Shown piece after piece: positions 4,481 through 57,707 of a stretch of 64,000 nucleotides of DNA. Source of the stretch: Anaerolineae bacterium. GTDB lineage: Bacteria; Chloroflexota; Anaerolineae; JAAEKA01. Position numbers and translations under genes: made by a program. The stretch is from NCBI GenBank assembly GCA_049294015.1, contig JBAQCH010000345.1:4279-68278 (forward strand), read 5' to 3'. The stretch's first letter is position 1, and each line of letters begins with the position of its first letter. The notes beneath the pieces were generated by a model. It did no database searches. It had not been told where the DNA came from and saw only the letters and a list, made by a program, of their open reading frames with translations.

Positions 4481-8113
<3,633 letters not shown>

Positions 8114-8908: not shown

Positions 8909-11695
<2,787 letters not shown>

Positions 11696-14700: not shown

Positions 14701-14791
14701 CCAAACCTCTGCGGAGACAACAGCCTGGCTTTTTGCGGAGCTTGTGCAAACAACAGTGCCGGTAGCGACCATTCCGGTCGTCACGAACTAG
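11738..14791 (+). CDS. Multidomain membrane protein: N-terminal TPR-like ~40-aa repeats plus HEAT (PBS-lyase-type) repeats, a central block of ~5 transmembrane helices, then a C-terminal SNase (thermonuclease)-like domain followed by a bacterial SH3 (SH3b) domain
   Basis: Repeats DLLALLKQDLASAPGDAALRRRIAELLVQMGRYDEA and DLIPLLEQDLQTSPGNSALRERLAVSYRKSGRLDDL. HEAT segment EVRREAAKALGQLGDKRAKRPL. Hydrophobic helices span aa ~600-740. VTDGRAIRVELVDGTATVRYAGLLIPTGDTPGAAAAAQANRDLL…QLVEMGYA follows the SNase pattern V.DGDT…VRLIGID.PE, but Gly sits where the catalytic Glu is expected. ANIRQGPGTDRPVAGKA…GDWILV matches SH3b. Confidence 0.55.
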   Translation: MGEVDLAIESAKNLRHSIEVHGGSVMLAEDRMTFFDDYDALRNMRHYAPDDYWNLISQKPGFERELIEARNLLAAAQSDLRKTLDFLRKQTDLLPQQVNDIAHLLDDYDHSGAQFRARVEEAAARRAMEASIAAARANWQRTRSSAARVQLIAVLTQYQRWNDLLPLALEDVQNAPNDRRARQLLASVYEHLGKRDDLLALLKQDLASAPGDAALRRRIAELLVQMGRYDEAIGQLQQDMAAPRPEPWAADLMLQALERAKKTDALILFLQGQMQANPSDPRRRQKLETVLEQEARWGDLIPLLEQDLQTSPGNSALRERLAVSYRKSGRLDDLLNHHLLPAAKQAPAEFPPKQAVVEALLDGQRDTDVLGYIKQELAASQTGAGFLSRFVAVLAKRKRSDLVEPLAMSCLPSSLGRMDAYMEIARGYRQNDEVKAALAFLDAMGQRFPDDKTVGDLPAAFLVESLETASSTTRSFVLKQLYARPDKTRAVVALNELFAKTNDVNVQLDVLAALVEIQKAQALPFLKASLSHSSKEVRREAAKALGQLGDKRAKRPLRRQLKVEQDASVKVALKDALHQIDPKAKEHPPLTASSVVKAMIGGGLLGAIWGWVQTFFWISPGLSDGSITLILGAISGAVIFGFPISVVRPSKSQDDGCLTLFGGGAVTGGVVGIAMILLMPILIGSSMLSFGYINDNVTIIMSAAMAAVLSVLGVIVFKTKRFWILPVTGLLLVAVVILPVILPVAGWTSRMADVIAQGRAGLAAMFDKTSNSSQNEEMVVATNTATPMVEATRSDSPTPQPTLTVPAGVPATAQSAKVMSVTDGRAIRVELVDGTATVRYAGLLIPTGDTPGAAAAAQANRDLLHNQSVWLETTNPVPAGADVEAQIWLAAGTLANLQLVEMGYALPDPTLEDESAASRLQQAAREAWEAQAGFWAGGTDVAPWAAVVVDTANIRQGPGTDRPVAGKATRSDIFVINGRNANGDWILVQTSAETTAWLFAELVQTTVPVATIPVVTN

Positions 14792-14811
14792 ACGCATGAC
14801 GAGAGATCACC

Positions 14812-15852
14812 ATGGCACATCAGTCAACGAGCAAGGAGGAATGGGCAACAGCAGCAGCCGAGAATGCTGCTACCTTGAGACACGAGATCAACCGTCTGAA
14901 GTCGGATTACGGTCCATCCTTGATGTCTGGACGCGATTATGCTGGTTTCTTTGCTCATGCCAAGCAAATCTCTGAGTTGTTCAAGGCGCTTAAGCCTTTG
15001 AAGTGGGAAGTAAGGGAAGAGCTATGGTCAGATTTCAATCAAACCTGCGATGAAGTACGCCGAGCCAGCGATAGTGAGCAGGAGAATCGTCGTTACAGGT
15101 CTGCGGAGGTCAAAGAGGTGGCGCTTCGTCTTATAAGGGTCGCCACTACATCGGCGGAAGTAGCTGCTGATCGTGACGATGTTCAGAGAGCGAGAGATGC
15201 CTTCAACGAGGCTCACGATTGGCTCCGTGAGCACGCGGGCGAGTTGTTGAGAAACGACGCGAAATTGTGCTGGGATCAGTTTCACGACGGAAAACGCACG
15301 CTTGGCTTTCGAATCGAGCAGCTTCAGGACTGGGCCTATAAAGAGGCGCGTCAAGCGATCCAAGAAGCACGCCGTGCTCTGGGTCGTGACGACCCATTCG
15401 CAGCCCTCAAGGAGATCAAAGCTGCGCAACACAGTTGTAAGGGCCTTTATTTGCGCAAGGATCAAAGCGAAGAGATACGCAGCGAATTCACCGAAATCTG
15501 GGAACAAGCTCAAGAGAACATTGATGAGTATCGTCGTGAGCAGGCCAGAAGACATGAAGAGTATCTCGAACGTCAAGCTGAGAGAGAGAGAAAGCATCAG
15601 GAATGGGTCAGGCGGCAACAGGAGCATATTGAACGATGGTCAAGCAAGGTTGATCGGCTCGAGCAAGTTATCCGAAGCCTGGAGGACCAAATCAGCGATT
15701 TGGAGTATAAGCGTTCCACAGCTCGGAACCGCGACTTTGCTGAGAACTGCGCAGATTGGATCCGCGAAAAACATGCGAAGATCGCTGATATCGAGGAGAC
15801 AATTCGCGACTTAAACAATCGCATCCGAGATGTTCAGCATCAAATCCACTAG
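14812..15852 (+). CDS. Coiled-coil protein of unknown function, Glu/Arg/Gln-rich, probably co-transcribed with 11738..14791
   Basis: It starts 21 nt after the preceding stop. Long heptad-like charged segments appear (EYRREQARRHEEYLERQAERERKHQEWVRRQQEHIERW). Confidence 0.5.
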   Translation: MAHQSTSKEEWATAAAENAATLRHEINRLKSDYGPSLMSGRDYAGFFAHAKQISELFKALKPLKWEVREELWSDFNQTCDEVRRASDSEQENRRYRSAEVKEVALRLIRVATTSAEVAADRDDVQRARDAFNEAHDWLREHAGELLRNDAKLCWDQFHDGKRTLGFRIEQLQDWAYKEARQAIQEARRALGRDDPFAALKEIKAAQHSCKGLYLRKDQSEEIRSEFTEIWEQAQENIDEYRREQARRHEEYLERQAERERKHQEWVRRQQEHIERWSSKVDRLEQVIRSLEDQISDLEYKRSTARNRDFAENCADWIREKHAKIADIEETIRDLNNRIRDVQHQIH

Positions 15853-16013
15853 CGGACAGGAGGTAGATATGACATATTGATTCTAAGCATTGAGTTTTCC
15901 GGCTCGTCGACATGTGGATGCCCCACATCATGGTTGACGCAGGAGATAAGGTGCGCTACAAGCGCAGCCGTCCAGTCGCCAACTAACCCATCAGCAAACA
16001 GGAGAGTTGAACC

Positions 16014-17525
16014 GTGAAGATCAAGCTCATTTCCATCGTGCTCGTGTCAGCCTTTCTGGCAGCGCTAGCAGGCTGCGTTGCCCCGCCCGCGTCAGCTCCC
16101 CCTTCTCCACAAGGGGAGACCACAGAATCTGCAGCTGTCGTTTCTACTGAGAGCGCCACGGGCCAGGAACCAGTGAGAATCACTTTTTGGGAGTGGTTTG
16201 GCGGCGCGTGGGGCGATTTCTTTGAGGAGGAAGCCCAGAGATTTCACGCCGCACATCCAGATGTTGTCGTAGAAGTGTCCCATTTTCCTGACCAAAGCGC
16301 CTATCGTGAAGTGCTCGCGCTCGCTTTCGAGTCAGGTAGCGCGCCGGACACATTCCTAAGGCGCCACACATTCAGCCAGGTTTTCGAGAACGGGTGGGCT
16401 CAGTCAATCGATCCTTGGTTAACGCCAGAGTGGCTGGCGAAGTTTCCTGAGGCTTCGTTTGTTGAGACCAAGAACGTCTGGGATGGAAGAACCTACGCGT
16501 TTCCCGTAACGGCGCTCAAGTTAGATCGAGTAATCTACGTGAACGAGGACATGTTCCGGGCCGCTGGCCTGACTGATGCAGAGGGCAACATCACGGTACC
16601 TGAGACCTGGGATGATCTGAGGTCAATGGCAAAGAAGATCACTGAAACGGGCAACGGAGCCTACTATGGCATCGGAATCGGCATCAAAGATCCTCGCCAG
16701 ATGAGTTGGTGGTTCGATCTGGCGGACCTTGCGGGAGCTTCAGGTACTTACGAATTTGACTATCGAACTGGTGCCTACAATTTTGGCACCGACCCTGCTT
16801 TTTCCCGCGTAATCGAGCTCCTGCTTGGCATGAAGGCTGACGGAAGTGTCTATCCCTATGAAAGCACACTGGATGACAGTAATTTATACACTGGGTTTGG
16901 TCAAGGTCAGTACGCGATGTTTTTGAGTGGTTCTTGGACAGCGAGTAATCTGGAACGGGACTTTCCCGAGCTGAAAAACTACCGCATTATTCCGCTTCCG
17001 ATTCCAGACGAAGGACGCCAAGGGGGGTTACCGTACACACCGGGCAGTGGGCAGTACTACATGTCGGCAACGACCCAGTATCCTGATGAAGCCTGGCTGT
17101 GGCTGGATTGGATATCTTCACGTGGATTTCATGAGCGCATGGTCTCCAAGGCATTGGATTACTCTGTATACCCCGACCTAAACACTGCCGACCTAATGAC
17201 TGATCCAATCCAGCGCCAAGCCTACGATGCCTTGTTCCAGTACCTTGTTTCGTTACCATCACCTACAGTTCGCAATCCTGAGACGACCGCAGTGATACCG
17301 GGTCCTGTGATTCCGGATACCGGCGATGTCTTGGTGGGGATTTATACCGGGCAGATCAAGGACTGGGAAAATGCGTTACTAGACCTCGATGCGAGGAAGC
17401 AAGCCGCTTTTGATGCAGCCATCGAGAAAGCTCAAAGCGAAGGCGCTGATGTCAGCATTGAGGACTTCGTCTTTCCGGATTGGAACCCCATGGAAAACTA
17501 CATAACGGTGCCAGAAGGTCCATGA
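16014..17525 (+). CDS. ABC transporter extracellular solute-binding lipoprotein (family-1 sugar SBP)
   Basis: GTG start with an AGGAG RBS. Lipobox LAALAGC. Typical SBP composition. Two permease genes lie downstream. Confidence 0.8.
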   Translation: MKIKLISIVLVSAFLAALAGCVAPPASAPPSPQGETTESAAVVSTESATGQEPVRITFWEWFGGAWGDFFEEEAQRFHAAHPDVVVEVSHFPDQSAYREVLALAFESGSAPDTFLRRHTFSQVFENGWAQSIDPWLTPEWLAKFPEASFVETKNVWDGRTYAFPVTALKLDRVIYVNEDMFRAAGLTDAEGNITVPETWDDLRSMAKKITETGNGAYYGIGIGIKDPRQMSWWFDLADLAGASGTYEFDYRTGAYNFGTDPAFSRVIELLLGMKADGSVYPYESTLDDSNLYTGFGQGQYAMFLSGSWTASNLERDFPELKNYRIIPLPIPDEGRQGGLPYTPGSGQYYMSATTQYPDEAWLWLDWISSRGFHERMVSKALDYSVYPDLNTADLMTDPIQRQAYDALFQYLVSLPSPTVRNPETTAVIPGPVIPDTGDVLVGIYTGQIKDWENALLDLDARKQAAFDAAIEKAQSEGADVSIEDFVFPDWNPMENYITVPEGP

Positions 17526-17670
17526 GGAGACTTCACCCACCGTGCAGGGCCGGAACATCGGCGTGATGATGAAGCCAGATCCTAACTAGACCTGGATCGT
17601 CGAGAGAGTATGGAAAGTGACTAGGCGGCTGGAATGCTTCTGCCGCCTGGTCACTTCCAGTGGAGTCACA

Positions 17671-18582
17671 ATGATATCTGCTGCCACAGCGAGAATCCGA
17701 CGGAATCTCTGGGTGTATGTGTTTATTGCGCCGATGTTGTTGCTCTTTGTTTTGTTTACATTGTATCCGGTCTTTGGATCCTTTCGCTACACGCTGTACG
17801 ACTGGAATGGCATCGGTGAACCAAGGCGTTACGTCGGCATCACCAACTTCTTTGATACATTCAGGGATCCCTGGTTTTGGAATGCATTCAAGAACACTCT
17901 GATCTATACGTTGGTGCTCGTTCCCATTCAACTTGCGATCGCTTTAGTGATGGCCGTTATCCTTGACCGACCTTGGCTCCGAGCCAGATACGTGTACCGT
18001 GCAGCCTTCATTGCTCCCATAGTCACTTCATCAGCAATAGTAGGCATCATCATCACTCTCCTGGTAACGACAGCCAATCGGGGCGTCAACCAGCTCGTAC
18101 TCAATTTCGGTCTCTTGACGAGGCCATTTGATTGGCTGGGTGATGCGAGAACCGCCATGCCTATCCTCATTGGTACAGGGATATGGATCGGACTGGGATA
18201 CCCGATCATCTACTTCCTGGCCGCCCTACAGTCGATTGATAAACAGTTATATGATGCGGCGAAAGTTGATGGTGCAGGCATTTGGGCCAGCTTCCGCCAC
18301 GTCACTGTTCCTCAAATCCTGCCTGTTGGCGTTGTGGTTGCGTTGCTGGTCGCGCTAAGTAGTCTGAGGGTCTTCGACATTGTGCAAGTGATGACCAAAG
18401 GTGGCCCGTATTTTGCCACGGATGTAGTCAGCACATATGTGTATCGATACACTTTTGCAACGGACTTGGCTGATCCAAACGTCGGACGGGCATCAGCAGC
18501 GGCCTTCCTGGTGAGTCTGTTGATTGGTGCAGTGACCGTGCTTGAAGTAGGAATGATCCGCAGAATCCGTGCGCAGAAATGA
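17671..18582 (+). CDS. ABC sugar transporter permease (MalF/UgpA-like)
   Basis: ATG at 17671 with a GGAG RBS. Six or more transmembrane helices. ABC-permease EAA-like loop AAKVDGAGIWASFRHVTVP. The longer ORF start at 17617 is unlikely. Confidence 0.75.
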   Translation: MISAATARIRRNLWVYVFIAPMLLLFVLFTLYPVFGSFRYTLYDWNGIGEPRRYVGITNFFDTFRDPWFWNAFKNTLIYTLVLVPIQLAIALVMAVILDRPWLRARYVYRAAFIAPIVTSSAIVGIIITLLVTTANRGVNQLVLNFGLLTRPFDWLGDARTAMPILIGTGIWIGLGYPIIYFLAALQSIDKQLYDAAKVDGAGIWASFRHVTVPQILPVGVVVALLVALSSLRVFDIVQVMTKGGPYFATDVVSTYVYRYTFATDLADPNVGRASAAAFLVSLLIGAVTVLEVGMIRRIRAQK

Positions 18583-18600
18583 GTGAAGGAGCGTGCTTCA

Positions 18601-19443
18601 ATGCTTCCGTATTCAAAACCAGTCAGGATTTCGAGGTTTGTTCTCTATGCCGTACTATCTATTGTGGCCTTCCTTTACACCTATCCGTTTCTCTGGATGG
18701 TATCCGGATCCTTCAAAAAGCCTGGTGAATTCTACGAGCAAGGCCTTCGGCTAGTCGTCGACAACCCGAACTGGCAGAACTTCCTAAGCGTGTGGAACAC
18801 TGTCGGCTTCGATATCTACTTCCGCAACACCGTAGTTGTTGCCGTTGTGACCACTCTGCTAGTCCTGCTCTTTACGTCCATGGCTGGCTATGTTATTGCT
18901 CGTCACGAGTTTCCTGGTCGCAGACTCGTTGTAGGTTGCCTCCTGGTGACGATCTTCCTTCCCAGGGGATACACAATCGTACCTATTTTTGAACTGATCA
19001 AAGACTTAGGGCTCTTGAATACACTTTGGGCGGTAATCTTGGTCAGCACTGGAACCAGCATGGTTTTCAATACCTTTCTTTTTGCAGGCTACTTCTTGAC
19101 CTTACCCAAGGAACTGGAAGAGGCTGCTCTTCTTGACGGCGCAAACCTTCCACAGATCTATGGGAGAGTCGCCATACCTTTTGCTCGGCCAATGATCGCA
19201 ACTGTCGCTCTATTCGAGTTCATCGAGCACTGGAATAGCTTCTTCATTCCCTTGGTTTTCACCCTTGGCCGGCCAGATCTGCGAACGTTAGCAGTTGGTA
19301 TGTATGCCTTTGTCGGGCAGCACCACACTCAATGGACGCTTATTTGTGCAGCTGCTACTATCTCACTTCTACCTATCGCCATACTGTTTATGATATTGCA
19401 GCGTCAGATCATTGACGGCATTGCGGGTGCAATTCATGGGTGA
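18601..19443 (+). CDS. ABC sugar transporter permease (MalG/UgpE-like)
   Basis: ATG at 18601 with a GAAGGAG RBS 9 nt upstream. EAA motif EEAALLDGANLPQIYGRVAIP. Confidence 0.75.
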   Translation: MLPYSKPVRISRFVLYAVLSIVAFLYTYPFLWMVSGSFKKPGEFYEQGLRLVVDNPNWQNFLSVWNTVGFDIYFRNTVVVAVVTTLLVLLFTSMAGYVIARHEFPGRRLVVGCLLVTIFLPRGYTIVPIFELIKDLGLLNTLWAVILVSTGTSMVFNTFLFAGYFLTLPKELEEAALLDGANLPQIYGRVAIPFARPMIATVALFEFIEHWNSFFIPLVFTLGRPDLRTLAVGMYAFVGQHHTQWTLICAAATISLLPIAILFMILQRQIIDGIAGAIHG

Positions 19444-19503: not shown

Positions 19504-22500
19504 ATGGCGCTAACCAATCGTGACCGCGTCGGCAAGGCGCTTGAGCTACTGCAGCAGGGTCTTCGCCCCTACGTCCAGCGCGAGATGGAGGCGGAGTATC
19601 GTTCAGCCTGGCTGAAGCAGGCCGCTTACAGCCTGCACAAGGACGAGGGCTGGGCCGACAGCGACCCGTTTCTGGACGCCCAGGCGCTGCTAGTCATCAT
19701 GTGGGACCAGTGGAATAGCGTCTTCAAGGAGACCTTAGGCTTCGCCGAGCGCGCCATCGTCAGTGAACTACGCGAGGCGCGCAACACTTGGGCGCATCAG
19801 GCTCCGTTCACCACCGACGACGCCTACCGCGCCCTGGACAGCATCGCCCGCCTTTTGACCGCGATCTCAGCGCCCGAAGCCCAAGAGGTCGAGCGCCAAA
19901 AGCAGGAGCTGCTGCGCCTCAAATTCGAGGAGCAGGCCCGCCACGAGCGCCGCAAAGCTGCCATCGCGCCCACCGAGGGCCGGCCCAGCGGCAGCCTCCT
20001 CCCCTGGCGCGAGGTGGTGACGCCCCATCCCGACGTGGCCTCGGGCCGCTACCTGCAGGCCGAGTTTGCGGCCGACCTGTGGCAGGTCTACATGGGCGAA
20101 GGCGCCGGCGAGTACCGCGACCCGCTCCAGTTCTTCGAGCGCACTTTCATCACCGATGGCCTGCGCCGGCTGCTGGTCAACGCGCTGCGCCGCCTGGACG
20201 GCCAGAACGCCGACCCCGTGATCGAGCTACAGACCAACTTCGGCGGCGGCAAGACCCACTCCATGCTGGCCCTGTTCCACCTGTTTTCTGGCGCTCCCGT
20301 AGGCCGTCTCGCCGGCGTCGAGCCGCTGGTGCGCGAGGCCGGCGCCGCGCCGCCGCCGACCGTTCACCGGGCCGTGCTGGTGGGCAACAAGATTTCGCCC
20401 GGCCAGCCCAGCCGCAAGCCGGACGGCACGGTGGTCCACACGCTGTGGGGCGAACTGGCCTGGCAGTTGGGCGGGGCCGAGGCCTATGCCCTGCTGGCCG
20501 ACGACGACCGCAACGCCACCAACCCTGGCGACCCACTGCGTCTGCTGTTCAACCGCTACGCCCCTTGCCTCCTCCTGGTCGACGAGTGGGTGGCCTACGC
20601 CCGCCAGTTGCACGACCGGGCCGATCTGCCGGGCGGCTGCTTCGACACCCACTTCACCTTTGCCCAGACCCTGACCGAGGCCGCCAAAGCTGCCGATCGC
20701 TGCCTGTTGGTGGTCTCCATGCCCGCCAGCGAGATCGAGATGGGCGGCGAGCGCGGCAAGGTCGCGCTGGACCGGCTCAAGAACGCTATCGGCCGGCTGG
20801 AGTCGCCCTGGCGGCCGGCCAGCGCTGAAGAGGGCTTCGAGATCGTGCGCCGCCGCCTGTTCCAGCCGCTGACCGACACCAGCAAGTTCGCCGCGCGCGA
20901 CCTGGTGGTGGGCAGCTTTGCCCGCATGTACCGCGAACAGCCGCAGGACTTCCCGGCCGAGACGCGCGAGGGCGCGTACGAGCGGAGGATGCAGGCGGCC
21001 TATCCCATCCACCCGGAGTTGTTCGACCGGCTGTATAGCGAGTGGTCCAGCCTGGAGAAGTTTCAGCGCACGAGAGGCGTACTGCGCCTGATGGCCGCGG
21101 TGATCCACGCCCTGTGGGAGCGCGGCGACAGCAATCTGCTGATCCTGCCGGCCACCGTGCCCATCGACGACGCCAACGTCCAAGCCGAACTGACCCGCTA
21201 CCTGGACGACAACTGGGTACCCGTGATCGAGCGGGACGTGGACGGCCCGGCCAGCCTGCCCCTCAAGCTGGATCGCGACAACCCGACCCTGGGTCGCTTC
21301 TCGGCCAGCCGCCGCGTGGCGCGCACCATCTACCTGGGATCGGCCCCCACTGCCAAGGCCAGCAACCCCGGCATCGACGACCGGAGCATTCGCCTGGGCT
21401 GTGCGCAGCCGGGCGAGAACGTGGCCGCCTTCGGCGATGCGCTGCGCCGCCTGACCGACAACGCCACCCACCTCTACGTGGATCGCAGCCGCTACTGGTA
21501 CAACACCCAGCCCAGCGTCGGTCGCCTGGCCCAGGACCGCGCCGCGCAGATGGATCGCGAAGATCACATCTGGCCGGAACTCAAGCGTCGGCTGCGCGCA
21601 GACCGCCAGCGTGGAGAGTTCAGCGCCGTCCATGCCGCGCCTGACTCCAGCGGCGACGTCCCTGACGAGATGACGACGCGTCTGGTGATCTTGGGACCGG
21701 GCTACCCGCACACACGGCGCGATCCCGCCAGCAAAGCACTGTCCGAAGCTAGGAGCATCCTGGCCTGGCGCGGCAGTGCGCCGCGGCTGTATCAGAACAT
21801 GGTGGTCTTCTTGGCCCCGGACAGTAACCGGCTGCCGGAGCTAGAAGACGCCATCCGCCATTACCTGGCGTGGAAGTCCATCGACGACGAGAAGGACACC
21901 CTGAACCTGGATACCTTCCAGCGCAACCAGGCCAAGACCAAGCACGAGCAGGCCGACCAGACGGTCAACGCTCGCATCAAGGAGGCCTACGTCTGGTTGC
22001 TCTCGCCGCACCAAGAGGATCCCCAAGACCCGCAAACGCTCAACATCGACGAGGCCAAGCTGGCGGGGCAGGACAGCCTGGCGGTGCAGGCCAGCCGCAA
22101 GCTCAAGAACGAGGACTGGCTGAGCACCGAGTTCGGCGGCGTGCCGCTGCGCATGGCGATGGATCGCTACAACCTGTGGCAGGGCGCCGAGCGCGTCCTC
22201 CTGCGCCAATTGTGGGAGTACTTTGCCCGCTACCCCTACCTGCCCCGCCTGTGCGCCCAAGACGTGCTGCTGGGAGCGGTGCAGAACGGCGTCGGTCAGA
22301 TTACCTGGCACGAGAACTTCGCTTACGCGGCCGGCTGGGACGACAGCCGCCAACGCTACCTGGGGCTGCGGGCGGGAGAGAACACCAGCGTGCTGCTGGA
22401 CGGCCAGAGCCTGCTGGTCAAACCGGCGGCCGCCCAGCGCCAGATCGACGCCGACCGTCAGGAGCAGGAGAAACGCACGCCACCGCCGGGAGGTGAGGGC

Positions 22501-22812
22501 ACAGGTACGACCGTGAGGACGCCGCCGCCTGGTGGAGAAACACCACCGCCGCCCGATCCTCAGCCACCTGTCGTTAGGCATCGCCGTTTCCACGGTTCGG
22601 TCAAGCTGGACACATTACGACTGTCATCCCAGGCCGGCGCTGTCCACGAGGCCGTCGTCCAGCATCTGCAAAGCCTGGTGGGAGCGGAGGTGCAGGTCAC
22701 GCTGGAAATCCAGGCCTACCTGCCTGATGGCGCGCCGGAGAATGTGGTGCGGACGGTGACTGAGAATGCGCGGACGCTGAGGTTCGAGGGCTTTGGGTTT
22801 GAGGACACGTAA
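19504..22812 (+). CDS. DUF499-family protein: N-terminal Swt1-like HEPN domain plus P-loop ATPase, the ATPase component of the helicase-methylase-ATPase defence triad
   Basis: HEPN Rx4H motif REARNTWAHQ. Walker A TNFGGGKTHS. The overall ~1100-aa architecture is typical of DUF499. GGAG RBS before ATG 19504. Confidence 0.8.
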   Translation: MALTNRDRVGKALELLQQGLRPYVQREMEAEYRSAWLKQAAYSLHKDEGWADSDPFLDAQALLVIMWDQWNSVFKETLGFAERAIVSELREARNTWAHQAPFTTDDAYRALDSIARLLTAISAPEAQEVERQKQELLRLKFEEQARHERRKAAIAPTEGRPSGSLLPWREVVTPHPDVASGRYLQAEFAADLWQVYMGEGAGEYRDPLQFFERTFITDGLRRLLVNALRRLDGQNADPVIELQTNFGGGKTHSMLALFHLFSGAPVGRLAGVEPLVREAGAAPPPTVHRAVLVGNKISPGQPSRKPDGTVVHTLWGELAWQLGGAEAYALLADDDRNATNPGDPLRLLFNRYAPCLLLVDEWVAYARQLHDRADLPGGCFDTHFTFAQTLTEAAKAADRCLLVVSMPASEIEMGGERGKVALDRLKNAIGRLESPWRPASAEEGFEIVRRRLFQPLTDTSKFAARDLVVGSFARMYREQPQDFPAETREGAYERRMQAAYPIHPELFDRLYSEWSSLEKFQRTRGVLRLMAAVIHALWERGDSNLLILPATVPIDDANVQAELTRYLDDNWVPVIERDVDGPASLPLKLDRDNPTLGRFSASRRVARTIYLGSAPTAKASNPGIDDRSIRLGCAQPGENVAAFGDALRRLTDNATHLYVDRSRYWYNTQPSVGRLAQDRAAQMDREDHIWPELKRRLRADRQRGEFSAVHAAPDSSGDVPDEMTTRLVILGPGYPHTRRDPASKALSEARSILAWRGSAPRLYQNMVVFLAPDSNRLPELEDAIRHYLAWKSIDDEKDTLNLDTFQRNQAKTKHEQADQTVNARIKEAYVWLLSPHQEDPQDPQTLNIDEAKLAGQDSLAVQASRKLKNEDWLSTEFGGVPLRMAMDRYNLWQGAERVLLRQLWEYFARYPYLPRLCAQDVLLGAVQNGVGQITWHENFAYAAGWDDSRQRYLGLRAGENTSVLLDGQSLLVKPAAAQRQIDADRQEQEKRTPPPGGEGTGTTVRTPPPGGETPPPPDPQPPVVRHRRFHGSVKLDTLRLSSQAGAVHEAVVQHLQSLVGAEVQVTLEIQAYLPDGAPENVVRTVTENARTLRFEGFGFEDT

Positions 22813-23020
22813 GACAGAGCGACAACCTGTTCTGTGGTCAATCAACATGCTTGCAGTTATGATCACAATGGCATGATTGGGAGAACCTCACTTTCTCTCA
22901 CTGTGTCTAGGGCCGTTACCTGTTTCGTAGGCTTAGCCATCGCTGATAGTCTGGTCTACAAGAAGTGCAGTACGCTGACAAGCACTGGCACAACCAGGTG
23001 TCTGGAGTCTGAGGTTCGAG

Positions 23021-23602
23021 ATGAACGATTTTCGCTCATTGCATTTGGATGAAATAAGAAGGGACCTTTTTTTGAGAGGGTATAGTGGCACAGAAGTGAA
23101 CGAACTGTTGGATTTCCCGATTCTGCTAATTCCTGGTCCCGTTACGCCTCTCGATCTGGATGAACCCATCCAACAACTGACAAACCACATTGCCTTCCTC
23201 TCGAAGGATTTGTCAAGTGAGGGAGTCACAAACGTGGTAGCTGTTCGAAGAGATGTCCCCAAGCATTATGTCGAAGAGCGTCACGCTCATGTTGACTTGG
23301 GAACAATTGTGGTTAGTCTCATAAGCTTGCAGCAATTAGATGGCTTTGCAAATATCGCTCAGATTCTCGACTTTTTTCTTAACCTGATGAAGCTGAGGTT
23401 CAGTGAAGGACGAACAACAGACCTCACTCCGAGTGTTACGTTTGACCTGCAAGTTCATAACGGGGATAAGGTAGTCAGCTGGCATGTTGAAGGTCCTGCC
23501 AATGACCTAATCAAAATGACCACCCCCGCGCGTATTGCTGCCATAACCGCCGGCCTGAAGGAAACCTCCAAAGATGACTATACTCGATGCTCAGATACTT
23601 GA
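23021..23602 (+). CDS. Hypothetical protein, first gene of an AT-richer cassette
   Basis: Protein-like composition and no recognisable motifs. The region is visibly lower in G+C than its flanks. Confidence 0.45.
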   Translation: MNDFRSLHLDEIRRDLFLRGYSGTEVNELLDFPILLIPGPVTPLDLDEPIQQLTNHIAFLSKDLSSEGVTNVVAVRRDVPKHYVEERHAHVDLGTIVVSLISLQQLDGFANIAQILDFFLNLMKLRFSEGRTTDLTPSVTFDLQVHNGDKVVSWHVEGPANDLIKMTTPARIAAITAGLKETSKDDYTRCSDT

Positions 23603-24905
23603 TGAACTTCACGAAATCCTGGATGCCTCGAACCGGCACTATATTGAGGGAACTCGCATCTGGAACGGATTTGGGTTGGACAATCCGCAATTCGCTAGCG
23701 ATGCGGCCTACGCTGCTTTGATCCAGTATCAACGGGCAGTTGATCTGATTGATCTTGGCAGGTTTTCCCGTTTGCCACAAGAAGTGATGAATAGGGTTCT
23801 TGCATTTCGCGAACAGGTATTAGCCCAGGTCGCTACCATGAAGTTCTACGCAGCAGGAGATAGGGAGGATTGTGAGGAGAGACTGAAGCACGCTAATGAC
23901 GCGGTTACACATTTGAGAAACGCTATTGGGCGGTTGGAAATGTCAAGGTCAATCGACGAGAGTCACTTGTTCAGTTTGCAGACCGATCTTTTGCATTGCG
24001 AAGGCTGTCAAGCCAATATGCTGGCAAAAAGGGCTTCAAGAAACGGTGAGTATGCGGATGCGATTCGGTTTTACCAATACGGCGAGTCCAAGTACTTGAC
24101 ACTGATGGACCTGTGCGAGTCTCGTGCACCAGAACTGGCCGCCGTCCGATCGAGATTCGACGAACCACCTGACCTAAATTGGAACTCAGAAACCACAGTT
24201 GATAATTCCGGCATCCGTTTTCGAGCGAGGATTCTGCATACACAAGGGCAACCCTCAATCCTGTCCGATCATGACAAGTATCTTCGCGCGGTAGCGAATT
24301 ACTATTCGAATGCGGGCAGTAGAAGCAATCTTGAAGCGTTTGAGATTCTATCGAAGGAAAGATTGCCGCAAGCCGCAGAGGACAAACTGGCCAACGCTGT
24401 TGATTGTATCTATCGCGCTATGGAAGCGTTTCCTGCCAATCTTGAGTTTCACCGTGACCTTGTGGCTGCGTGGAGGGCACGAGGAGAGCTTTTTGGTTGT
24501 CCATTTATCGAGACTGAAGTGGCCGTGCATACCAGGTGCCCAATCGCGATCAAGTATTTAGTCGGTGAATGGTATGTTAGTCCAACGCTCGAATATGACT
24601 CGTTGTTATGCAACGTATGCGGTAAGGATATTCTGGAGTGTTCGCATTTTCCAGGACAGGTAGTGGATGGTACCACGGTCGCATACCAAAGAGCCAATCC
24701 ACGTATCTCCTCGGTTAGCCTTGTAGACATTCCCGAAGACCCCCGATGTGTGATCGAATGGATAAGTCTACCTAAAGACTACTTACCTCCCAGACCCAAG
24801 CCCGATAGTCAGTGGCGCTGCTTCATGTGTCAAGTAGAAACAGCCAACGGCATGCTGGTGGGTCCGCCAACTGAACTCCCGTCAAGAGAATTGTCCGTCT
24901 CTTAA
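23574..24905 (+). CDS. Hypothetical protein with a C-terminal Cys-rich (zinc-ribbon-like) region
   Basis: CNVCGKDILECSH…CFMCQ near the C-terminus. It overlaps the upstream gene by 29 nt. Lower G+C. Confidence 0.5.
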   Translation: MTILDAQILDELHEILDASNRHYIEGTRIWNGFGLDNPQFASDAAYAALIQYQRAVDLIDLGRFSRLPQEVMNRVLAFREQVLAQVATMKFYAAGDREDCEERLKHANDAVTHLRNAIGRLEMSRSIDESHLFSLQTDLLHCEGCQANMLAKRASRNGEYADAIRFYQYGESKYLTLMDLCESRAPELAAVRSRFDEPPDLNWNSETTVDNSGIRFRARILHTQGQPSILSDHDKYLRAVANYYSNAGSRSNLEAFEILSKERLPQAAEDKLANAVDCIYRAMEAFPANLEFHRDLVAAWRARGELFGCPFIETEVAVHTRCPIAIKYLVGEWYVSPTLEYDSLLCNVCGKDILECSHFPGQVVDGTTVAYQRANPRISSVSLVDIPEDPRCVIEWISLPKDYLPPRPKPDSQWRCFMCQVETANGMLVGPPTELPSRELSVS

Positions 24906-25384
24906 GGTTGTGATGCCCTCTTCTGCATCGTGCTGTACACCGTTGGCGTAGCAGAAACAGTCATTTCGGCCACCGGCATACTCGCCATTCCGATCAACCG
25001 CGCCTCACCCACCACTTCCAACCCCAGCACGCCATGCCCCCGATCTACTGACCGGTCAGCCTACCGCCCCGGCGCGCCACTTCCTTGCCAGTCTTGGTGT
25101 TACAATCACAACTCCAAGCCCTCGTATGCAAGCGGGCTGGCACGAGGTGCGGATTCTTGGGGACCGAATGTGATGGGGTATTGCGCGGGCGGTGGAAGAG
25201 TGGTATGATGATCATGAGTGTCTGCAAACCGCGGTGAGCCACGCAGGTTTCGGCACGACGCCCCGCATACGAAAGAAAGCGGAATTGCGAGTTGGCGGGA
25301 AATGACGACCGGCATTACCTCCAATCACGTAGTTAGGCGGTCCTCCTTTCTCCAGATAAGATCTTTGCGCAAGGAGAAGATTCC

Positions 25385-25933
25385 ATGCAGTTTCTGGCAG
25401 ATCCTGATTTTTGGAGCACATTGTCCTCAGCAGCAACAATTCTAGGTTTTGCGGTTGTGATTTACACGGCTGTAGTGGCTTTGGGTCAGCTAAAGGAGAT
25501 GACCAGGGCGAGGCATCTGGAAGCTATGTTGCAGGTGTACGAAATGATTGGCTCAGAAGAGGCCCGAAAACATAGGAGATTCATCTATACTGAACTCGAG
25601 TCGAAACCAGAGGAGTTAACCCCCTCCGAGCGCAAACATGTAGAACAAGTAAGCGTTACTTTTGACCGTATCGGGAAATTGGTTGAGTCAGGCTTAATAC
25701 CAAGAGACGAACTGCTAGAGAGCCACTGTGAGGTCATTATTAGGTCTTGGAAAAAACTAGAACCATACATTCTGTACCATCGACATATAGTGGGCGGACG
25801 CCATGCACAATACTTTGAACATCTAGCCGCAACCGCTCAAGAATATCATTCAAGACATTTCCCCGGCCAAGCTCTCAATATTGTTGATCTATGGCCGGGT
25901 GCAGTTGCATCCGATGAGACCAGCGCCGCCTAA
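25385..25933 (+). CDS. Hypothetical membrane-anchored protein with a single N-terminal transmembrane helix
   Basis: AAGGAGAAG RBS. Transmembrane segment TILGFAVVIYTAVVALG, then a soluble helical domain. Lower G+C. Confidence 0.5.
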   Translation: MQFLADPDFWSTLSSAATILGFAVVIYTAVVALGQLKEMTRARHLEAMLQVYEMIGSEEARKHRRFIYTELESKPEELTPSERKHVEQVSVTFDRIGKLVESGLIPRDELLESHCEVIIRSWKKLEPYILYHRHIVGGRHAQYFEHLAATAQEYHSRHFPGQALNIVDLWPGAVASDETSAA

Positions 25934-26089
25934 CATTGTTTGGAGCCGACGCCCACCCTTGCGCTCATAACCACCCTGTCATGCTCGCAATGGTGCCAGT
26001 GATTCGAGCGTGTCTTGCTAGCGGGGCGGGTGAGCGCGGCTCACACCAACCGTTAGATGCAGGTCACATTGTGTCTCCCCTCCCCAACT

Positions 26090-26260
26090 TCCCCGTGCAT
26101 CCGGCGCGCTGATGTGGAGGTGCACTGCAGCCTTGAGGCGGCTGGCGATGCGGCCGTGGTACTGGCTGAACTCGCGCTCCGTCTAGTTGGACGTGACCAC
26201 CGTGGGCAGGTCGTGGTTGACGCGGTAGTTGATCAGCTGGTAGAGCTTCTCCCGCGCCCA
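26090..26260 (-). pseudogene. Fragment A of a DnaC/helicase-loader-like C-terminus with an internal stop (W to *), just downstream of the DnaB-DnaC gene
   Basis: Minus strand reads …REKLYQLINYRVNHDLPTVVTSN*TEREFSQYHGRIASRLKAAVHLHISAPDARG. It is ~85-90% nucleotide-similar to 50600-50790 and 51481-51660. It is homologous to the C-terminus of the loader domain of 26329..28527 (LYDLLDQRMAL…). Confidence 0.4.
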
Positions 26261-26328: not shown

Positions 26329-28527
26329 CTAGAACCTCGCCTCTTCCTCCCACACCGGCAGCGCGCTGAAATCCACCAGCACTGGCCGGCCGCGCTTCAG
26401 GCCCCTCTGGGCTGTGGCTACCCCTAGATGTCCATGCTGAGCTAGCTGTTGTGCAAACTCCGCCGGCAACTGGTTCAGCACCAGCAGCACTGGCCCCTGC
26501 CGGCCGCCGGTCAGCGCCATTCGCTGGTCCAGCAGATCATACAGATAGCCCACGCTCCACTCGGTAGTGCCCTTGTCGGGATCGTCCAGGATCAATACCG
26601 GTGCCTGGGTCTGCTGCCACACCTCCGCCTCGCGTCCGTTGCCATTGAAGGTGCCCTTGATCTCGCGCATGTAGCTGCGCCAGTTGAGCCACACGGCTGG
26701 CATGCCGTGCTCCAGGATCAGCGCGCGCTGCACGATGCGCGCGAGCAAGGTCTTGCCGCGGCCACTGGGGCCGAAGAAGATGGCGAAGCGGCCCTCCAGC
26801 AGGGCCGACGCCACCTGCTCCTGCGCCTGCTGCAACACCGCCGCCCGCGCGCCAACGGCCAGGAAGTCGGTGACCACAGGCGGCGTCGCGCCGTTGCGGC
26901 TCTTAGCCAGCGCAGACAGCTCGCGCAGCACCGCTTCATCCAGCCGCTGGCTGCTGGCCAGGGCCTGCCCCACCTGGGTCACCAGGCGTTTGGGATCGCC
27001 CTCCATCTGCTTGACCTGCGCGCGGCCCTGCTGCAAGACCAGCTCCAGTCCCAGCGGGTGTAGCTGCCAGTCGGCCCAGGTGTAGGGAAGCGCCTCACAC
27101 TGGCGCAGCAGCTCCAGCCGGTGTGCGCGGCGGTCGGCCTCGCCGAAGATCAGCGGCTCCGGCGTGAACTGGGAGTAGCGCGGGTTCCAGCCCACCGGGA
27201 AGTCGCCGATCTGGCCGTTGCGCGCCTTGGCCAGGATCAGCGTGGCCCGGTTGACGTCGGCCTCGGGCACGAACTGGCTCTCCCGGTGGATGAAGACGAT
27301 CACCGACGCGTCCTTCTCCCACTGGCTCGATCCTTCCAGGTCGGACATCCTGGGCCGCTTGTCCGCGCGCTTGTCGACCTCGCGGTTGAGCTGCGCCACC
27401 ACGATCACTGCGATGTGTAGCTCCTTGGCCAGCGCCTTGAGTTGGCGCGAGATGTACGCCAGCTCCTGAGTGCGGTTCTCTGTGCGCAGGCCGGCTGTCA
27501 GGAGCTGCACGTAGTCCACGACCACGAACTGGATGGCGTGGCGCAGGTGCAGGCGCTTGACGCGCGCGGCCAGATCGGCCATGGTCAGGCTGGCCGAGTC
27601 GTCGACCAGCAGGTTGTCGGTGCTGGCCCGGGCGCGCGCCGCGTCCAGCGCCTGCCAGTCCTGGATGTCGCCCAGCCTGATCTGGATGGCGGTGTAGCCC
27701 GACTCGGGCGCGAGAATGCGCTCGCCCACCTGGGTGTCCTGCATCTCCAGCGAGAAGACCGCGCCGCGCGCGCCGGTCTTGGCCGCCTGGTGCGCGATGC
27801 CCAGCGCCAGCGCGGTCTTACCGCCGCCCGGGGGCGCGGCCAGCACGATGACGTCCGAAGGCCACATGCCGCCGGTGCGCCGGTCCAGCTCGGGGATGCC
27901 GAAGGGGATGGAGACTTCGTGCCCCTCCGCGCGCAGCCGCGCGTGTTCCCTGGCCTGGGCCACGGTGTCGTTCAACACTGCGGTCAGCGTCTTGGCCCTG
28001 CGCTCTCCCTTGCGCTGGACTGCCGTCTCCACCAACTCCACAGCGCCGGCGCAAAGCCGGTCGATGCTCTTGACTTCGTAGACCGACTGGGCAATCTGGC
28101 CGGCCGCGCGCAGCAGCCGGCGAGCCACCGCGCGCTCCTCCACGATGCGCGCGTAGTGCGTCGCATGGATGGCCGTGGGCACGGCGTTGATCAAGTCCAT
28201 GACGTAGGCCGGCCCGCCCGCTTCGTCCAACTGCCGGCGGCGTTCCAGCTCGTCGGTGACGGTGAGGAAATCGGCCTTCGAGTCCTTGCCGTTCAGGTCC
28301 AGGATGGCCTGGTAGATCCAGCCATGTTTCTGCAGATGGAAGTCGTCAGCGGCCAGCAGCTCGGCGACCTCCACCACGGCGTCGGGATCGATGAGGATGG
28401 ACCCAAGCACAGCCTGCTCTGCCTCGACGTTGGCAGGGATTGGGGGTTCGTTGGGATTCGGTTCGTACACGCAGGGACCTCTTGGCACGCAGGTGAGATT
28501 TCCGGGAACCGGTTCCGACAGGCTCAA
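26329..28527 (-). CDS. Replicative helicase DnaB fused to a DnaC/IstB-like AAA+ helicase-loader domain. Start uncertain: TTG at 28527 or GTG near 28468.
   Basis: DnaB N-terminus PANVEAEQAVLGSILIDPDAV. RecA-like Walker A AAPPGGGKTALALG. DnaB C-terminus ILAKARNGQIG. A second P-loop domain FFGPSGRGKTLLA…VLILDD follows. Confidence 0.75.
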   Translation of the reverse strand: MSLSEPVPGNLTCVPRGPCVYEPNPNEPPIPANVEAEQAVLGSILIDPDAVVEVAELLAADDFHLQKHGWIYQAILDLNGKDSKADFLTVTDELERRRQLDEAGGPAYVMDLINAVPTAIHATHYARIVEERAVARRLLRAAGQIAQSVYEVKSIDRLCAGAVELVETAVQRKGERRAKTLTAVLNDTVAQAREHARLRAEGHEVSIPFGIPELDRRTGGMWPSDVIVLAAPPGGGKTALALGIAHQAAKTGARGAVFSLEMQDTQVGERILAPESGYTAIQIRLGDIQDWQALDAARARASTDNLLVDDSASLTMADLAARVKRLHLRHAIQFVVVDYVQLLTAGLRTENRTQELAYISRQLKALAKELHIAVIVVAQLNREVDKRADKRPRMSDLEGSSQWEKDASVIVFIHRESQFVPEADVNRATLILAKARNGQIGDFPVGWNPRYSQFTPEPLIFGEADRRAHRLELLRQCEALPYTWADWQLHPLGLELVLQQGRAQVKQMEGDPKRLVTQVGQALASSQRLDEAVLRELSALAKSRNGATPPVVTDFLAVGARAAVLQQAQEQVASALLEGRFAIFFGPSGRGKTLLARIVQRALILEHGMPAVWLNWRSYMREIKGTFNGNGREAEVWQQTQAPVLILDDPDKGTTEWSVGYLYDLLDQRMALTGGRQGPVLLVLNQLPAEFAQQLAQHGHLGVATAQRGLKRGRPVLVDFSALPVWEEEARF

Positions 28528-49199: not shown

Positions 49200-49469
49200 A
49201 TGGCCCTGAACGATCTGCCCAGCGATATGGAACGGCTAGAGGAAGAACTTCGCCACTTCGAGGCTAGGTTCGGTATGAAGTCCCAAGATTTCCACGACGC
49301 CATGCGGCGCGGCGACCTGGGGGAATTCGACGCGCTGGACGACTACCGCATGGAGTTTGTCGAGTGGCTTGCACTCTACAAGACGCGGGCCAGCCTGGAT
49401 GAGAGGTATCGCCGCTTGGCCGGCCCAATGACGCCATCAGACGCTCCCTCGTGGGATGCTGCTGGCTAG
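49200..49469 (+). CDS. Hypothetical small acidic protein
   Basis: Protein-like composition. It overlaps the higA stop region. Confidence 0.35.
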   Translation: MALNDLPSDMERLEEELRHFEARFGMKSQDFHDAMRRGDLGEFDALDDYRMEFVEWLALYKTRASLDERYRRLAGPMTPSDAPSWDAAG

Positions 49470-49783: not shown

Positions 49784-49795
49784 CGTTCTTACACC

Positions 49796-51119: not shown

Positions 51120-51122
51120 GAC

Positions 51123-56684: not shown

Positions 56685-56726
56685 CTTGACGTCTCCTTAA
56701 GTCAGAGCAGTTTGGCGGCTCGTGCC

Positions 56727-57680: not shown

Positions 57681-57707
57681 TATGCTGGCTCAGGGTGTTC
57701 CAACGGG

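What the first reader, a model, noticed from the sequence alone, without database searches (positions are those of the whole stretch)
22813..25935. AT-richer three-gene cassette of unknown function immediately downstream of the DUF499 ATPase
Sequence from ~22.8 to 25.9 kb is conspicuously AT-richer than anything else in the window. It encodes three co-directional proteins with no recognisable domains. They are a 193-aa protein, a 443-aa protein with a C-terminal Cys-cluster, and a 182-aa protein with a single N-terminal transmembrane helix. A ~480-nt ORF-free gap lies before the third gene, which has an AAGGAG RBS. The cassette sits between a defence system and a phage-derived module. That position and the foreign composition make these prime candidates for undescribed defence or counter-defence cargo.
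Basis: seen in the sequence. Interest (0 to 1): 0.65.

Follow-up and report, generated by a model that had tools for sequence, protein, structure and literature searches.

The report
Undescribed two-gene module plus unrelated DUF4760 gene
The AT-rich stretch is real, but it is not a three-gene cassette: it holds a conserved, horizontally moving pair of genes from two undescribed protein families (one with a new zinc-binding domain) and an unrelated single gene of the uncharacterised DUF4760 family, and none of the three has a demonstrated function.

Summary
The three ORFs exist exactly as described: A 23021-23602, B 23574-24905 and C 25385-25933. The 3.1-kb stretch is the lowest-GC stretch of its size in the window (GC 0.50; GC3 0.44-0.50 against 0.82-0.88 in neighbouring genes). 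A second island at 14.8-19.4 kb is almost as AT-rich.

The "three-gene cassette" reading fails.
- A and B are a conserved, abutting or overlapping pair in at least six independent metagenomic lineages.
- C never accompanies them. It is a stand-alone member of Pfam DUF4760.
- None of the three travels with the upstream Hma/DUF499 system.

A and B are rare: 18 and 14 clusters among 5.8 billion. They are the long-form branch of a wider, unannotated pair family of about 270 50%-identity representatives. That family occurs in Planctomycetota, Verrucomicrobiota, Cyanobacteria, Bacteroidota, Latescibacterota and one archaeon, and five members are A-B fusions. B is a TPR-like helical repeat followed by a new beta domain built on an invariant C-x2-C-x6-C-x-H motif.

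There is no match in Pfam, NCBIfam, PADLOC, PHROGs or PDB, and none in phage or plasmid collections.

The pair is AT-richer than its flanks in 15 of 15 loci and often lies among toxin-antitoxin (TA) and defence genes. The best guess is a self-contained conflict (defence or addiction) module. Its function is unproven.

The parts
22813..23020 (+). Intergenic leader between the HmaC stop and gene A (GC 0.50). It contains a sigma-70-like site at 22835-22863 (TGGTCA-17-TATGAT) and GAGG 8-11 nt before the ATG.
   Evidence: The promoter match is a consensus hit only: 2 found against 2.9 expected in shuffles.
23021..23602 (+). Gene A, 193 aa, an undescribed alpha/beta protein. Conserved motifs are DLxLRGY, LLIPGPxT, SKDL, YVEERHAHVDLG and AQILD. 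It is the partner of B.
   Evidence: 18 homologous clusters. The gene lies upstream of, and abuts or overlaps, B in every intact locus. AF2 pLDDT is 84.8. No Pfam, NCBIfam, PADLOC, PHROG or PDB match.
23574..24497 (+). Gene B, N-terminal alpha-solenoid (aa 1-308), TPR/SNAP-like. This is the fast-evolving part: 35-40% mean pairwise identity.
   Evidence: AF2 predicts helices 3-307. Foldseek hits are only to TPR, SNAP and Bro1 repeats, at E 7e-4 to 2e-3.
24498..24848 (+). Gene B, C-terminal Cys-rich beta domain (aa 309-425), the conserved core (61-66% identity). It has about 270 distant relatives.
   Evidence: No Pfam or PDB match.
24609..24647 (+). Invariant C-x2-C-x6-C-x-H knuckle (C346, C349, C356, H358), a presumed zinc site.
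   Evidence: The motif is found in 129 of the 148 family proteins screened (the list includes truncated ones). It is invariant in the 24-sequence domain alignment. Zinc binding is inferred and was not tested.
24906..25384 (.). 479-nt spacer (GC 0.58) separating the A-B pair from gene C. No detectable element.
   Evidence: No Rfam hit at E<=1. Folding z-scores are +0.28 and +0.56. It is not conserved upstream of C homologues. No significant protein-level similarity.
25385..25933 (+). Gene C, 182 aa, a DUF4760 family protein with one N-terminal transmembrane-type helix (aa 16-34 = nt 25430-25486) and its own AAGGAG RBS (25371-25376). It is an independent gene, not part of the A-B module.
   Evidence: Pfam PF15956 at 36.3 bits against a gathering threshold of 25. 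37 homologues. It stands alone in three unrelated contexts.
26075..26217 (-). Right-border landmark: a 143-nt fragment that reads like the 3' end of a DnaC/IstB-type loader gene, with an in-frame stop. It is one of three copies in the window; the others are at 50634-50775 and 51503-51646.
   Evidence: blastn gives 88% identity over 142-144 nt. Alignment, translation. It forms no hairpin.

Best explanation
The region is a patch of horizontally acquired accessory DNA holding two independent units.

UNIT 1: genes A and B
A and B form a self-contained, translationally coupled two-gene module whose products work as one complex.
- B supplies a fast-evolving TPR-like helical repeat. I infer this is the part that recognises a trigger or target.
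- B also supplies a strongly conserved beta domain organised around a CCCH zinc knuckle, with a second Cys4 set in this branch.
- A is a conserved alpha/beta partner carrying an acidic/basic signature (YVEERHAHVDLG; E-x-R in the wider family). I infer that A, together with the zinc domain, forms the constant 'business end'.
- I commit to the reading that this is a conflict module, meaning anti-phage/abortive-infection or addiction type, that moves between genomes on its own.
- It is not a component of the neighbouring Hma/DUF499 restriction-like system.

UNIT 2: gene C
C is a stand-alone membrane-anchored DUF4760 protein with its own ribosome-binding site.

WHAT IS SHOWN
- A-B gene linkage and A-B fusions.
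- Independence of the pair from C and from Hma.
- Foreign composition.
- The domain layout.
- Absence from all libraries of described families that were searched.

WHAT IS INFERRED
- Zinc binding.
- Which part senses and which part acts.
- The conflict function itself.
For: LINKAGE
- An A homologue (43-57% identity) lies directly upstream of the B homologue, from a 6-nt gap to an 11-nt overlap. This holds in L001, L002, L003/4/5/L030, L006 and L029, and in the window.
- The most divergent B (L003, 31%) is paired with the most divergent A (43%).

WIDER FAMILY
- A profile search found 268 representatives at E<=1e-3. Most are 200-320 aa and share only the Cys domain.
- In 10 of 14 genomic loci of the short form, and in L013/L014, an ORF of about 160-180 aa in 9 loci (313 aa in L022; a 155-codon open-frame hit in L020) abuts or overlaps the B-like gene.
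- Those upstream proteins are homologous to A. hhalign gives probability 80%, E 1.4e-5 over 131 columns. Reciprocal HMM hits fall only on the fragment upstream of B among all six-frame fragments of 30 loci (E 5.5e-8 and 6.9e-5).

FUSIONS
- The A-like HMM hits the N-termini of exactly the long B-family proteins P0171, P0142, P0056, P0155 and P0069.
- P0056 has no separate A gene upstream.

MOBILITY
- The A-B pair has lower GC than its flanks in 15 of 15 loci. C is lower in 3 of 3.
- One copy is truncated by an IS3 transposase (L007).

CONTEXT
- L001: Hypoth_Ymh, DUF4238, HATPase_c_3, CHAT/caspase.
- L002: DUF3800, AAA_15/21, NERD.
- L003: MazE/PIN and HigB.
- L006: SIR2_2, DUF2971, nucleotide cyclases.
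- Window: Hma system.
- Short-form loci: R-M methylases, MmeI, Uma2, NB-ARC and a transposase, alongside housekeeping genes.

CONSERVATION PATTERN
- The B N-terminus shows 35-40% identity and the zinc domain 61-66%.
Against: - No functional evidence of any kind exists. No catalytic or pore-forming fold was recognised in A (best Foldseek E 0.22) or in B.
- Many neighbours in the wider family are housekeeping genes such as IDH, PEPCK, G6PD and prenyltransferase. No statistical defence-island enrichment was computed.
- The family is absent from PADLOC, including its candidate (PDC) models.
- The central hydrophobic helix that looks membrane-active in short-form A-like proteins (KD 1.6-2.6) is weak in this A (1.21). 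A membrane-effector mechanism is therefore not supported for this copy.
- Sample sizes are small: about 6 independent long-form loci.
- The A-to-short-form homology is a remote, profile-level call.
Confidence: 0.4

Rival explanations
1. A-B is an accessory pair with a non-conflict role, for example a zinc- or redox-linked regulatory or scaffold protein and its partner used in stress or envelope physiology. It is merely carried on variable DNA.
For: Half or more of the neighbours in short-form loci are ordinary metabolic genes. No toxin, nuclease or pore fold was recognised. TPR plus zinc-knuckle architectures are common in regulators (general knowledge). The pair is absent from phage and plasmid collections.
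Against: The pair has lower GC than its flanks in 15 of 15 loci. Its phyletic distribution is patchy across phyla and one archaeon. One copy is disrupted by an IS. It repeatedly lies next to TA or defence genes in the long-form loci. It is extremely rare for a physiological function: 14-18 clusters in 5.8e9.
Confidence: 0.27
2. A-B is a toxin-antitoxin/addiction pair with no anti-phage role. One product is toxic and the other neutralises it by direct binding.
For: There are two overlapping co-directional genes. The loci lie beside MazE/PIN and HigB/HTH pairs, and the window itself carries HigB-like and Gp49-like pairs. Fusions imply physical interaction.
Against: Neither protein has a DNA-binding antitoxin domain or a known toxin fold. 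Both are large for type II TA (180 and 430 aa). Single-polypeptide fusions of toxin and antitoxin are unusual. In L029, A is intact while B carries a frameshift inside the zinc knuckle, and in L007 B is truncated and A is lost. Neither partner therefore looks strictly required to survive the other, although the frameshift could be an assembly error.
Confidence: 0.2
3. One reading: A, B and C form one three-gene cassette that works together, possibly as an accessory of the adjacent DUF499/Hma system or as phage-derived counter-defence cargo.
For: The three genes are co-directional and share low GC in this one locus. They lie directly downstream of HEPN-HmaC.
Against: C is separated by a 479-nt unconserved spacer and has its own RBS. 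No A-B locus contains a DUF4760 gene, and no DUF4760 locus contains A-B. No other A-B locus has Hma genes. The Hma/'BR type-1' core is described as a tripartite helicase-MTase-ATPase system (PMC12839542). There are no viral, phage or plasmid relatives of B or C.
Confidence: 0.05

Closest known systems
Two-gene sensor/effector anti-phage and abortive-infection modules found in defence islands (generic class; no specific family matches)
   Same: It is a compact, translationally coupled pair with a patchy cross-phylum distribution. It is AT-richer than its host and sits among TA, R-M and defence genes. It combines a variable repeat domain with a conserved core.
   Different: There is no homology to any of the 5027 PADLOC models. 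No recognisable effector domain (nuclease, TIR, SIR2, pore) is present. No phenotype is known.
Pfam DUF4760 (PF15956), for gene C only
   Same: C matches above the gathering threshold across 122 of 141 model positions. All but 3 (fragmentary) of the 37 close homologues carry the same precomputed Pfam assignment.
   Different: The family itself has no known function. The only literature mention found is a listing in a Serratia genomic island (PMC9964261).
TPR / SNAP-like alpha-solenoid proteins, for the B N-terminal domain
   Same: It is an all-helical repeat of about 300 residues. The top Foldseek hits are LGN/Pins TPR, KLC TPR, gamma-SNAP and Bro1. JGI labels two homologues 'TPR repeat protein'.
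   Different: No Pfam TPR model matches even at E 0.1. TM-scores are low (0.16-0.35) and E-values marginal.
Hma / 'BREX-related type-1' DUF499 system (the left neighbour)
   Same: Physical adjacency in this window. Both are accessory, defence-type DNA.
   Different: The composition differs (GC3 0.86 against 0.47-0.50). The linkage is not conserved elsewhere. A, B and C match none of HmaA/B/C.
Small zinc knuckles of the C-x-C/C-x2-C ... C-x-H type (SWIM, HNH-associated zinc fingers)
   Same: The ligand pattern C-x2-C-x6-C-x-H followed by Gly and an aromatic residue resembles these by eye.
   Different: No Pfam zinc-finger, SWIM or HNH model matches. A profile search of PDB gives only chance-level C2H2 hits at E 0.03. 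Here the knuckle sits between long beta strands.

Membership tests
Pfam DUF4760 (gene C) | Score at or above the curated gathering threshold of PF15956 | tested here: met
   36.3 bits against a threshold of 25, E 7.9e-9, residues 28-149. The homologues carry PF15956 as well.
Hma / BR type-1 (DUF499) system, with A, B or C as components | Homology to HmaA helicase, HmaB methylase or HmaC ATPase | tested here: not met
   PADLOC gives 0 families for A, B and C. The neighbouring genes score 1082-1620 bits for HmaC, HmaA and HmaB.
Hma / BR type-1 (DUF499) system, with A, B or C as accessories | Conserved co-occurrence with DUF499 loci | tested here: not met
   None of the other A-B loci (L001-L007, L029, L030) or C loci (L008-L010) contains DUF499 or DUF1156 genes.
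Any described anti-phage defence system (PADLOC-DB v2) | HMM match of A, B or their short-form relatives | tested here: not met
   No hits at E<=0.1 for A, B, C, or for 10 short-form A-like and B-like proteins.
Phage protein families (PHROGs) or phage- or plasmid-borne genes | PHROG match, or presence in viral, phage or plasmid collections | tested here: not met
   Only E 0.07-0.08 noise in PHROGs. No IMG/VR loci. No tblastn hits in INPHARED or PLSDB for B or C. A was not searched there on its own.
TPR repeat proteins (B N-terminus) | Match to a Pfam TPR/Sel1/HEAT repeat model | tested here: not met
   0 Pfam families at E<=0.1.
TPR repeat proteins (B N-terminus) | Alpha-solenoid fold similar to solved TPR structures | tested here: inconclusive
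   Foldseek top hits are TPR, SNAP and Bro1, but at E 7e-4 to 2e-3 and TM 0.16-0.35.
Type II toxin-antitoxin systems | Two small adjacent or overlapping co-transcribed genes | tested here: met
   29-nt overlap here, and from a 6-nt gap to an 11-nt overlap elsewhere. The proteins are larger than is typical.
Type II toxin-antitoxin systems | Recognisable toxin fold, and an antitoxin with a DNA-binding domain | tested here: not met
   No Pfam, NCBIfam or PDB match for either protein.
Type II toxin-antitoxin systems | Toxicity of one partner that is relieved by the other | not testable with these tools
   This needs expression experiments.
Integron cassette / attC array (for the 143-nt repeat at the right border) | Imperfect palindrome that folds as a single-stranded hairpin | tested here: not met
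   ssDNA folding z-scores are +1.05 to +1.63 on both strands of two copies. The repeat reads as a gene 3' end.

The most novel reading that the evidence does not exclude
A-B is the long-form representative of a previously unrecognised two-component immune (abortive-infection-type) system that spans several phyla. The system is built on two new protein families: an A-type partner and a B-type protein whose hallmark is a new CCCH zinc-knuckle beta domain. Variable helical 'sensor' extensions and occasional A-B fusions occur within it.
Probability: 0.3. Interest if true: 0.7.

Novelty: categorically new. Interest (0 to 1): 0.5.

Why it matters
If the A-B pair is a conflict system, it adds a new family with a new zinc-binding domain to the defence/TA repertoire. 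About 270 50%-identity representatives exist in at least six phyla. The family is present in cultivable hosts (Nostoc, Chamaesiphon, Allorhodopirellula), where it can be tested. Two undescribed domain families could be defined now from the alignments made here.

For annotation practice, the result shows two things. Co-directional genes sharing odd composition next to a defence system need not be one unit. And the Hma/DUF499 system in this genome is interrupted by foreign DNA.

'Categorically new' here refers to the absence of any described relative in the libraries searched. It does not refer to a demonstrated new mechanism. Gene C is an ordinary member of a known DUF.

Tried and rejected
- Rfam at gathering threshold and at E<=1, ARAGORN, and RNA folding of the 479-nt gap on both strands found nothing.
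- I asked whether the long gaps upstream of DUF4760 genes hide a conserved leader. They do not align.
- I asked whether the gap or the flanking spacers are decayed copies of genes seen next to A-B elsewhere. Only chance-level tblastn hits were found.
- A 17-nt direct repeat (22772-22788 and 23004-23020) does not bracket the island and is probably chance.
- Terminator and promoter scans were at or below shuffle expectation.
- Foldseek of both AF2 models against PDB, and of B against BFVD, gave only generic helical-repeat hits for B and nothing for A. Low-ranking HincII and bunyavirus-endonuclease hits for A (E 0.2-0.6, TM<0.2) were rejected as noise.
- Profile searches against PDB sequences gave no real hit.
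- Scans for the long-form B in IMG/VR and in GTDB representative genomes found none.
- The idea that the 143-nt border repeat is an attC-like recombination site was rejected because it forms no hairpin.
- A membrane-effector mechanism for this A was considered and set aside because its central segment is only weakly hydrophobic.
Full report
OBSERVATION

The ORF table shows the three plus-strand ORFs as described.
- A is 23021-23602 (193 aa).
- B is 23574-24905 (443 aa). Its ATG lies 29 nt inside A.
- C is 25385-25933 (182 aa).
- The A-B pair and C are separated by 479 nt. AAGGAG lies at 25371-25376, 8 nt before C's ATG.

The composition signal is real.
- The 3,123-nt stretch has GC 0.4995, against 0.618 for the window. 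It ranks lowest of 609 sliding windows of that size.
- Third-position GC is 0.47, 0.50 and 0.44 for A, B and C. It is 0.82-0.88 for HmaA, HmaC, the DnaB-like gene and a GH3 glycosidase.

The claim that this stretch is AT-richer than anything else is overstated.
- The stretch 14.8-19.4 kb holds a 346-aa coiled-coil protein plus an ABC solute-binding protein and two permeases. It reaches GC 0.508, with GC3 of 0.54-0.57.
- Its tetranucleotide profile is close to that of the finding (distance 0.018). The finding is at distance 0.045 from the rest of the window.
- The spacer itself is not AT-rich (GC 0.58).

SOURCE AND SETTING

Exact matches identify the contig as an NCBI MAG, 'Anaerolineae bacterium', genes WA040_19835, _19840 and _19845, on a contig of 69,933 bp.

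To the left lies a helicase-methylase-ATPase restriction-like system.
- HmaA is 4481-8113 (1620 bits). HmaB/DUF1156 is 8909-11695 (1217 bits). A HEPN_Swt1-fused HmaC/DUF499 is 19504-22812 (1082 bits).
- A 2026 survey calls these 'BREX-related type-1' systems. It describes a tripartite core in which the ATPase often carries an N-terminal HEPN (PMC12839542).
- Here the operon is interrupted between HmaB and HmaC by about 7.7 kb. The insert holds a 1017-aa TPR/HEAT/SNase/SH3 protein, the coiled-coil protein and the AT-rich ABC transporter.

To the right lies a DnaB-DnaC-type fusion helicase at 26329-28527 on the minus strand. A RecD-like helicase lies further on. I did not verify that this side is phage-derived.

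THE THREE GENES ARE NOT ONE UNIT

B has only 14 homologous clusters among 5.8 billion, and A has 18.

I read the long contigs that carry B homologues: L001, L002, L003/4/5/L030, L006 and L029.
- Each has a 176-188-aa gene directly upstream, from a 6-nt gap to an 11-nt overlap.
- These upstream proteins align with A at 43-57% identity, with 46 invariant positions.
- An A-family HMM run over every six-frame fragment of all loci picks out exactly those upstream fragments.
- In L007 the pair is cut by an IS3-type transposase. In L029, B carries a frameshift inside the zinc knuckle.

None of these loci has a DUF4760 gene or any Hma gene. The 189-aa gene downstream of B in L003 is unrelated to C.

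C, in turn, matches Pfam DUF4760 above threshold and has 37 close homologues. In L008, L009 and L010 these sit alone among unrelated genes. Long upstream spacers occur in two of those loci but do not align with the window's spacer. The spacer has no Rfam match, no folding signal and no protein-level similarity.

The A-B linkage is established.

WHAT A AND B LOOK LIKE

B:
- AlphaFold2 on the 14-sequence alignment gives pLDDT 79 and pTM 0.78.
- It predicts helices through residue 307, then a beta domain (strands 334-346, 371-384 and 392-400).
- Nine invariant ligand-type residues lie in this region: C309, C322, C346, C349, C356, H358, C392, C416 and C419.
- The helical part matches only TPR, SNAP and Bro1 repeats, and weakly.
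- The helical part is the variable portion (35-40% pairwise identity). The Cys domain shows 61-66%.

A:
- The model has pLDDT 84.8. It is an alpha/beta fold with no significant structural neighbour (best E 0.22).
- Its most conserved motif is YVEERHAHVDLG.

Neither protein matches Pfam, NCBIfam, PADLOC or PHROGs. Profile searches of PDB sequences also found nothing.

A WIDER FAMILY

A profile of B searched against 1.84 billion representatives found 268 proteins at E<=1e-3.
- Only about 11 are full-length.
- The rest are mostly 200-320 aa and share the Cys domain.
- The motif C-x2-C-x(4-8)-C-x-H was found in 129 of the 148 listed proteins examined, a list that includes fragments. It is invariant in a 24-sequence domain alignment.
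- Some members carry a tandem second knuckle.
- Ten of these proteins have no Pfam match.

One short-form subfamily (motif DPRCRIWPW) was located in 14 reference genomes. These are Planctomycetota (including Allorhodopirellula solitaria), Verrucomicrobiota, Cyanobacteria (Nostoc, Chamaesiphon), Latescibacterota, Bacteroidota and a Methanosarcinaceae MAG.
- In 10 of the 14, and in L013/L014, an ORF of about 160-180 aa in 9 loci (313 aa in L022; a 155-codon open-frame hit in L020) abuts or overlaps the B-like gene.
- The other four are partial B-like fragments.
- These upstream proteins are remote homologues of A. hhalign gives probability 80%, E 1.4e-5 over 131 columns.
- The cross-family HMM hits fall only on the fragment upstream of B.
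- Their central segment is strongly hydrophobic (19-mer KD 1.6-2.6 in 8 of 9). In this window's A the figure is 1.21.

Five long B-family proteins (P0171, P0142, P0056, P0155, P0069) carry an A-like N-terminus. P0056 has no separate A gene upstream. These are fusions in the same order as the gene pair. That is the strongest argument that the two products act together.

No Pfam, NCBIfam or PADLOC model covers the short-form proteins either.

MOBILITY AND NEIGHBOURHOODS

The A-B pair (or the fusion) has lower GC than its flanks in 15 of 15 loci. DUF4760 is lower in 3 of 3.

Long-form neighbourhoods are rich in conflict genes:
- L001: Hypoth_Ymh, DUF4238, a HATPase_c_3 protein, CHAT/caspase-TPR proteins.
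- L002: DUF3800, AAA_15/21, NERD.
- L003: MazE/PIN and HigB/HTH.
- L006: SIR2_2, DUF2971, nucleotide cyclases.

Short-form neighbourhoods mix R-M methylases, MmeI, Uma2, NB-ARC, a UvrD helicase and a transposase with plainly housekeeping genes.

There are no relatives of B or C in IMG/VR, INPHARED phages or PLSDB plasmids. The long-form B is also absent from 185,579 GTDB representative genomes, as far as the pattern scan reaches.

INTERPRETATION

Shown:
- A and B are real, conserved genes.
- They form a self-contained pair whose products very likely interact.
- The pair is horizontally mobile and independent of both C and the Hma system.
- Both proteins belong to families that no searched library describes.
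- B carries a new Cys/His domain.

Inferred:
- The Cys/His set binds zinc.
- The variable helical repeat is a recognition surface, and the conserved Cys domain plus A form the constant functional core.
- The module serves genetic conflict (defence/abortive infection, or addiction).

I give the conflict reading 0.4 in total. A pure TA reading gets 0.2, a non-conflict accessory role 0.27, and the original three-gene or Hma-accessory or counter-defence reading 0.05.

VERDICT

- Gene C is an ordinary member of a known but uncharacterised DUF.
- The A-B pair is a genuinely undescribed gene-pair family with a defined signature and testable homologues in cultured bacteria.
- Interest is moderate (0.5). 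The finding is well delimited and novel by every library searched, but it has no functional evidence.

Noticed in passing
window 11738-19443: The Hma/DUF499 ('BR type-1') operon is split. About 7.7 kb lies between HmaB (8909-11695) and HEPN-HmaC (19504-22812). The insert holds a 1017-aa TPR/HEAT + SNase + SH3 protein, a 346-aa coiled-coil protein, and an AT-rich ABC sugar-transporter trio (GC3 0.54-0.57). The trio's tetranucleotide signature resembles the A-B-C island. Either foreign DNA has been inserted into a defence operon, or the nuclease-repeat protein is an auxiliary effector.
   Followed up: partly
window 26075-26217 (-), 50634-50775 (+), 51503-51646 (+): A 143-nt sequence is present three times at about 88% identity. 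It translates to ..DLPTVVTSNWTEREFSQYH(G/S)RIASRLKAAVHxHISAPDARG. By eye this is the C-terminal end of a DnaC/IstB-type AAA+ loader. Copy 1 has an in-frame stop and marks the right border of the AT-rich island. It is not hairpin-forming, so it is not attC-like. It may be duplicated target-gene ends left by integration events.
   Followed up: partly
window 49466-50119 (-) and 50826-51437 (-): There are two toxin-antitoxin-like pairs. One is a HigB-like toxin (56% identical to a PF05015 protein in L003, E 7e-40) with an HTH partner. The other is a Gp49-like protein (E 6e-6 to a PF05973 protein in L010) with an XRE-type partner. Repeat copies 2 and 3 flank the second pair (copy 2 lies between the two pairs).
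   Followed up: partly
window 26329-28527 (-): A single 732-aa ORF combines DnaB N- and C-terminal helicase domains with a C-terminal DnaC/IstB-like AAA+ loader module (PHROG 19 and PHROG 50). This is a helicase-loader fusion.
   Followed up: no
P0056, P0080, P0100, P0112, P0129, P0156, P0165, P0171 (B-family proteins): Some family members carry a tandem second C-x2-C-x(4-5)-C-x-H knuckle, each followed by G-x-x-Y. The zinc knuckle therefore looks like a duplicable mini-unit.
   Followed up: no
L008 5519-6000: The spacer upstream of a DUF4760 gene holds a run of degenerate tandem repeats (GAGAGTCAACG / CTCTCCGAGAGTGA-like units). They are unrelated to the window's spacer.
   Followed up: no
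window 22772-22788 and 23004-23020: A 17-nt direct repeat (12 nt exact, CTGAGGTTCGAG) occurs at the 3' end of HmaC and again immediately before the ATG of gene A. It is probably chance and does not bracket the island.
   Followed up: partly
window 55839-59162 (-): A second ABC sugar-transporter cluster has low overall GC (0.52-0.61) but host-like GC3 (0.72-0.79), unlike the 16.0-19.4 kb cluster. Overall GC alone would therefore mislabel it as foreign.
   Followed up: partly
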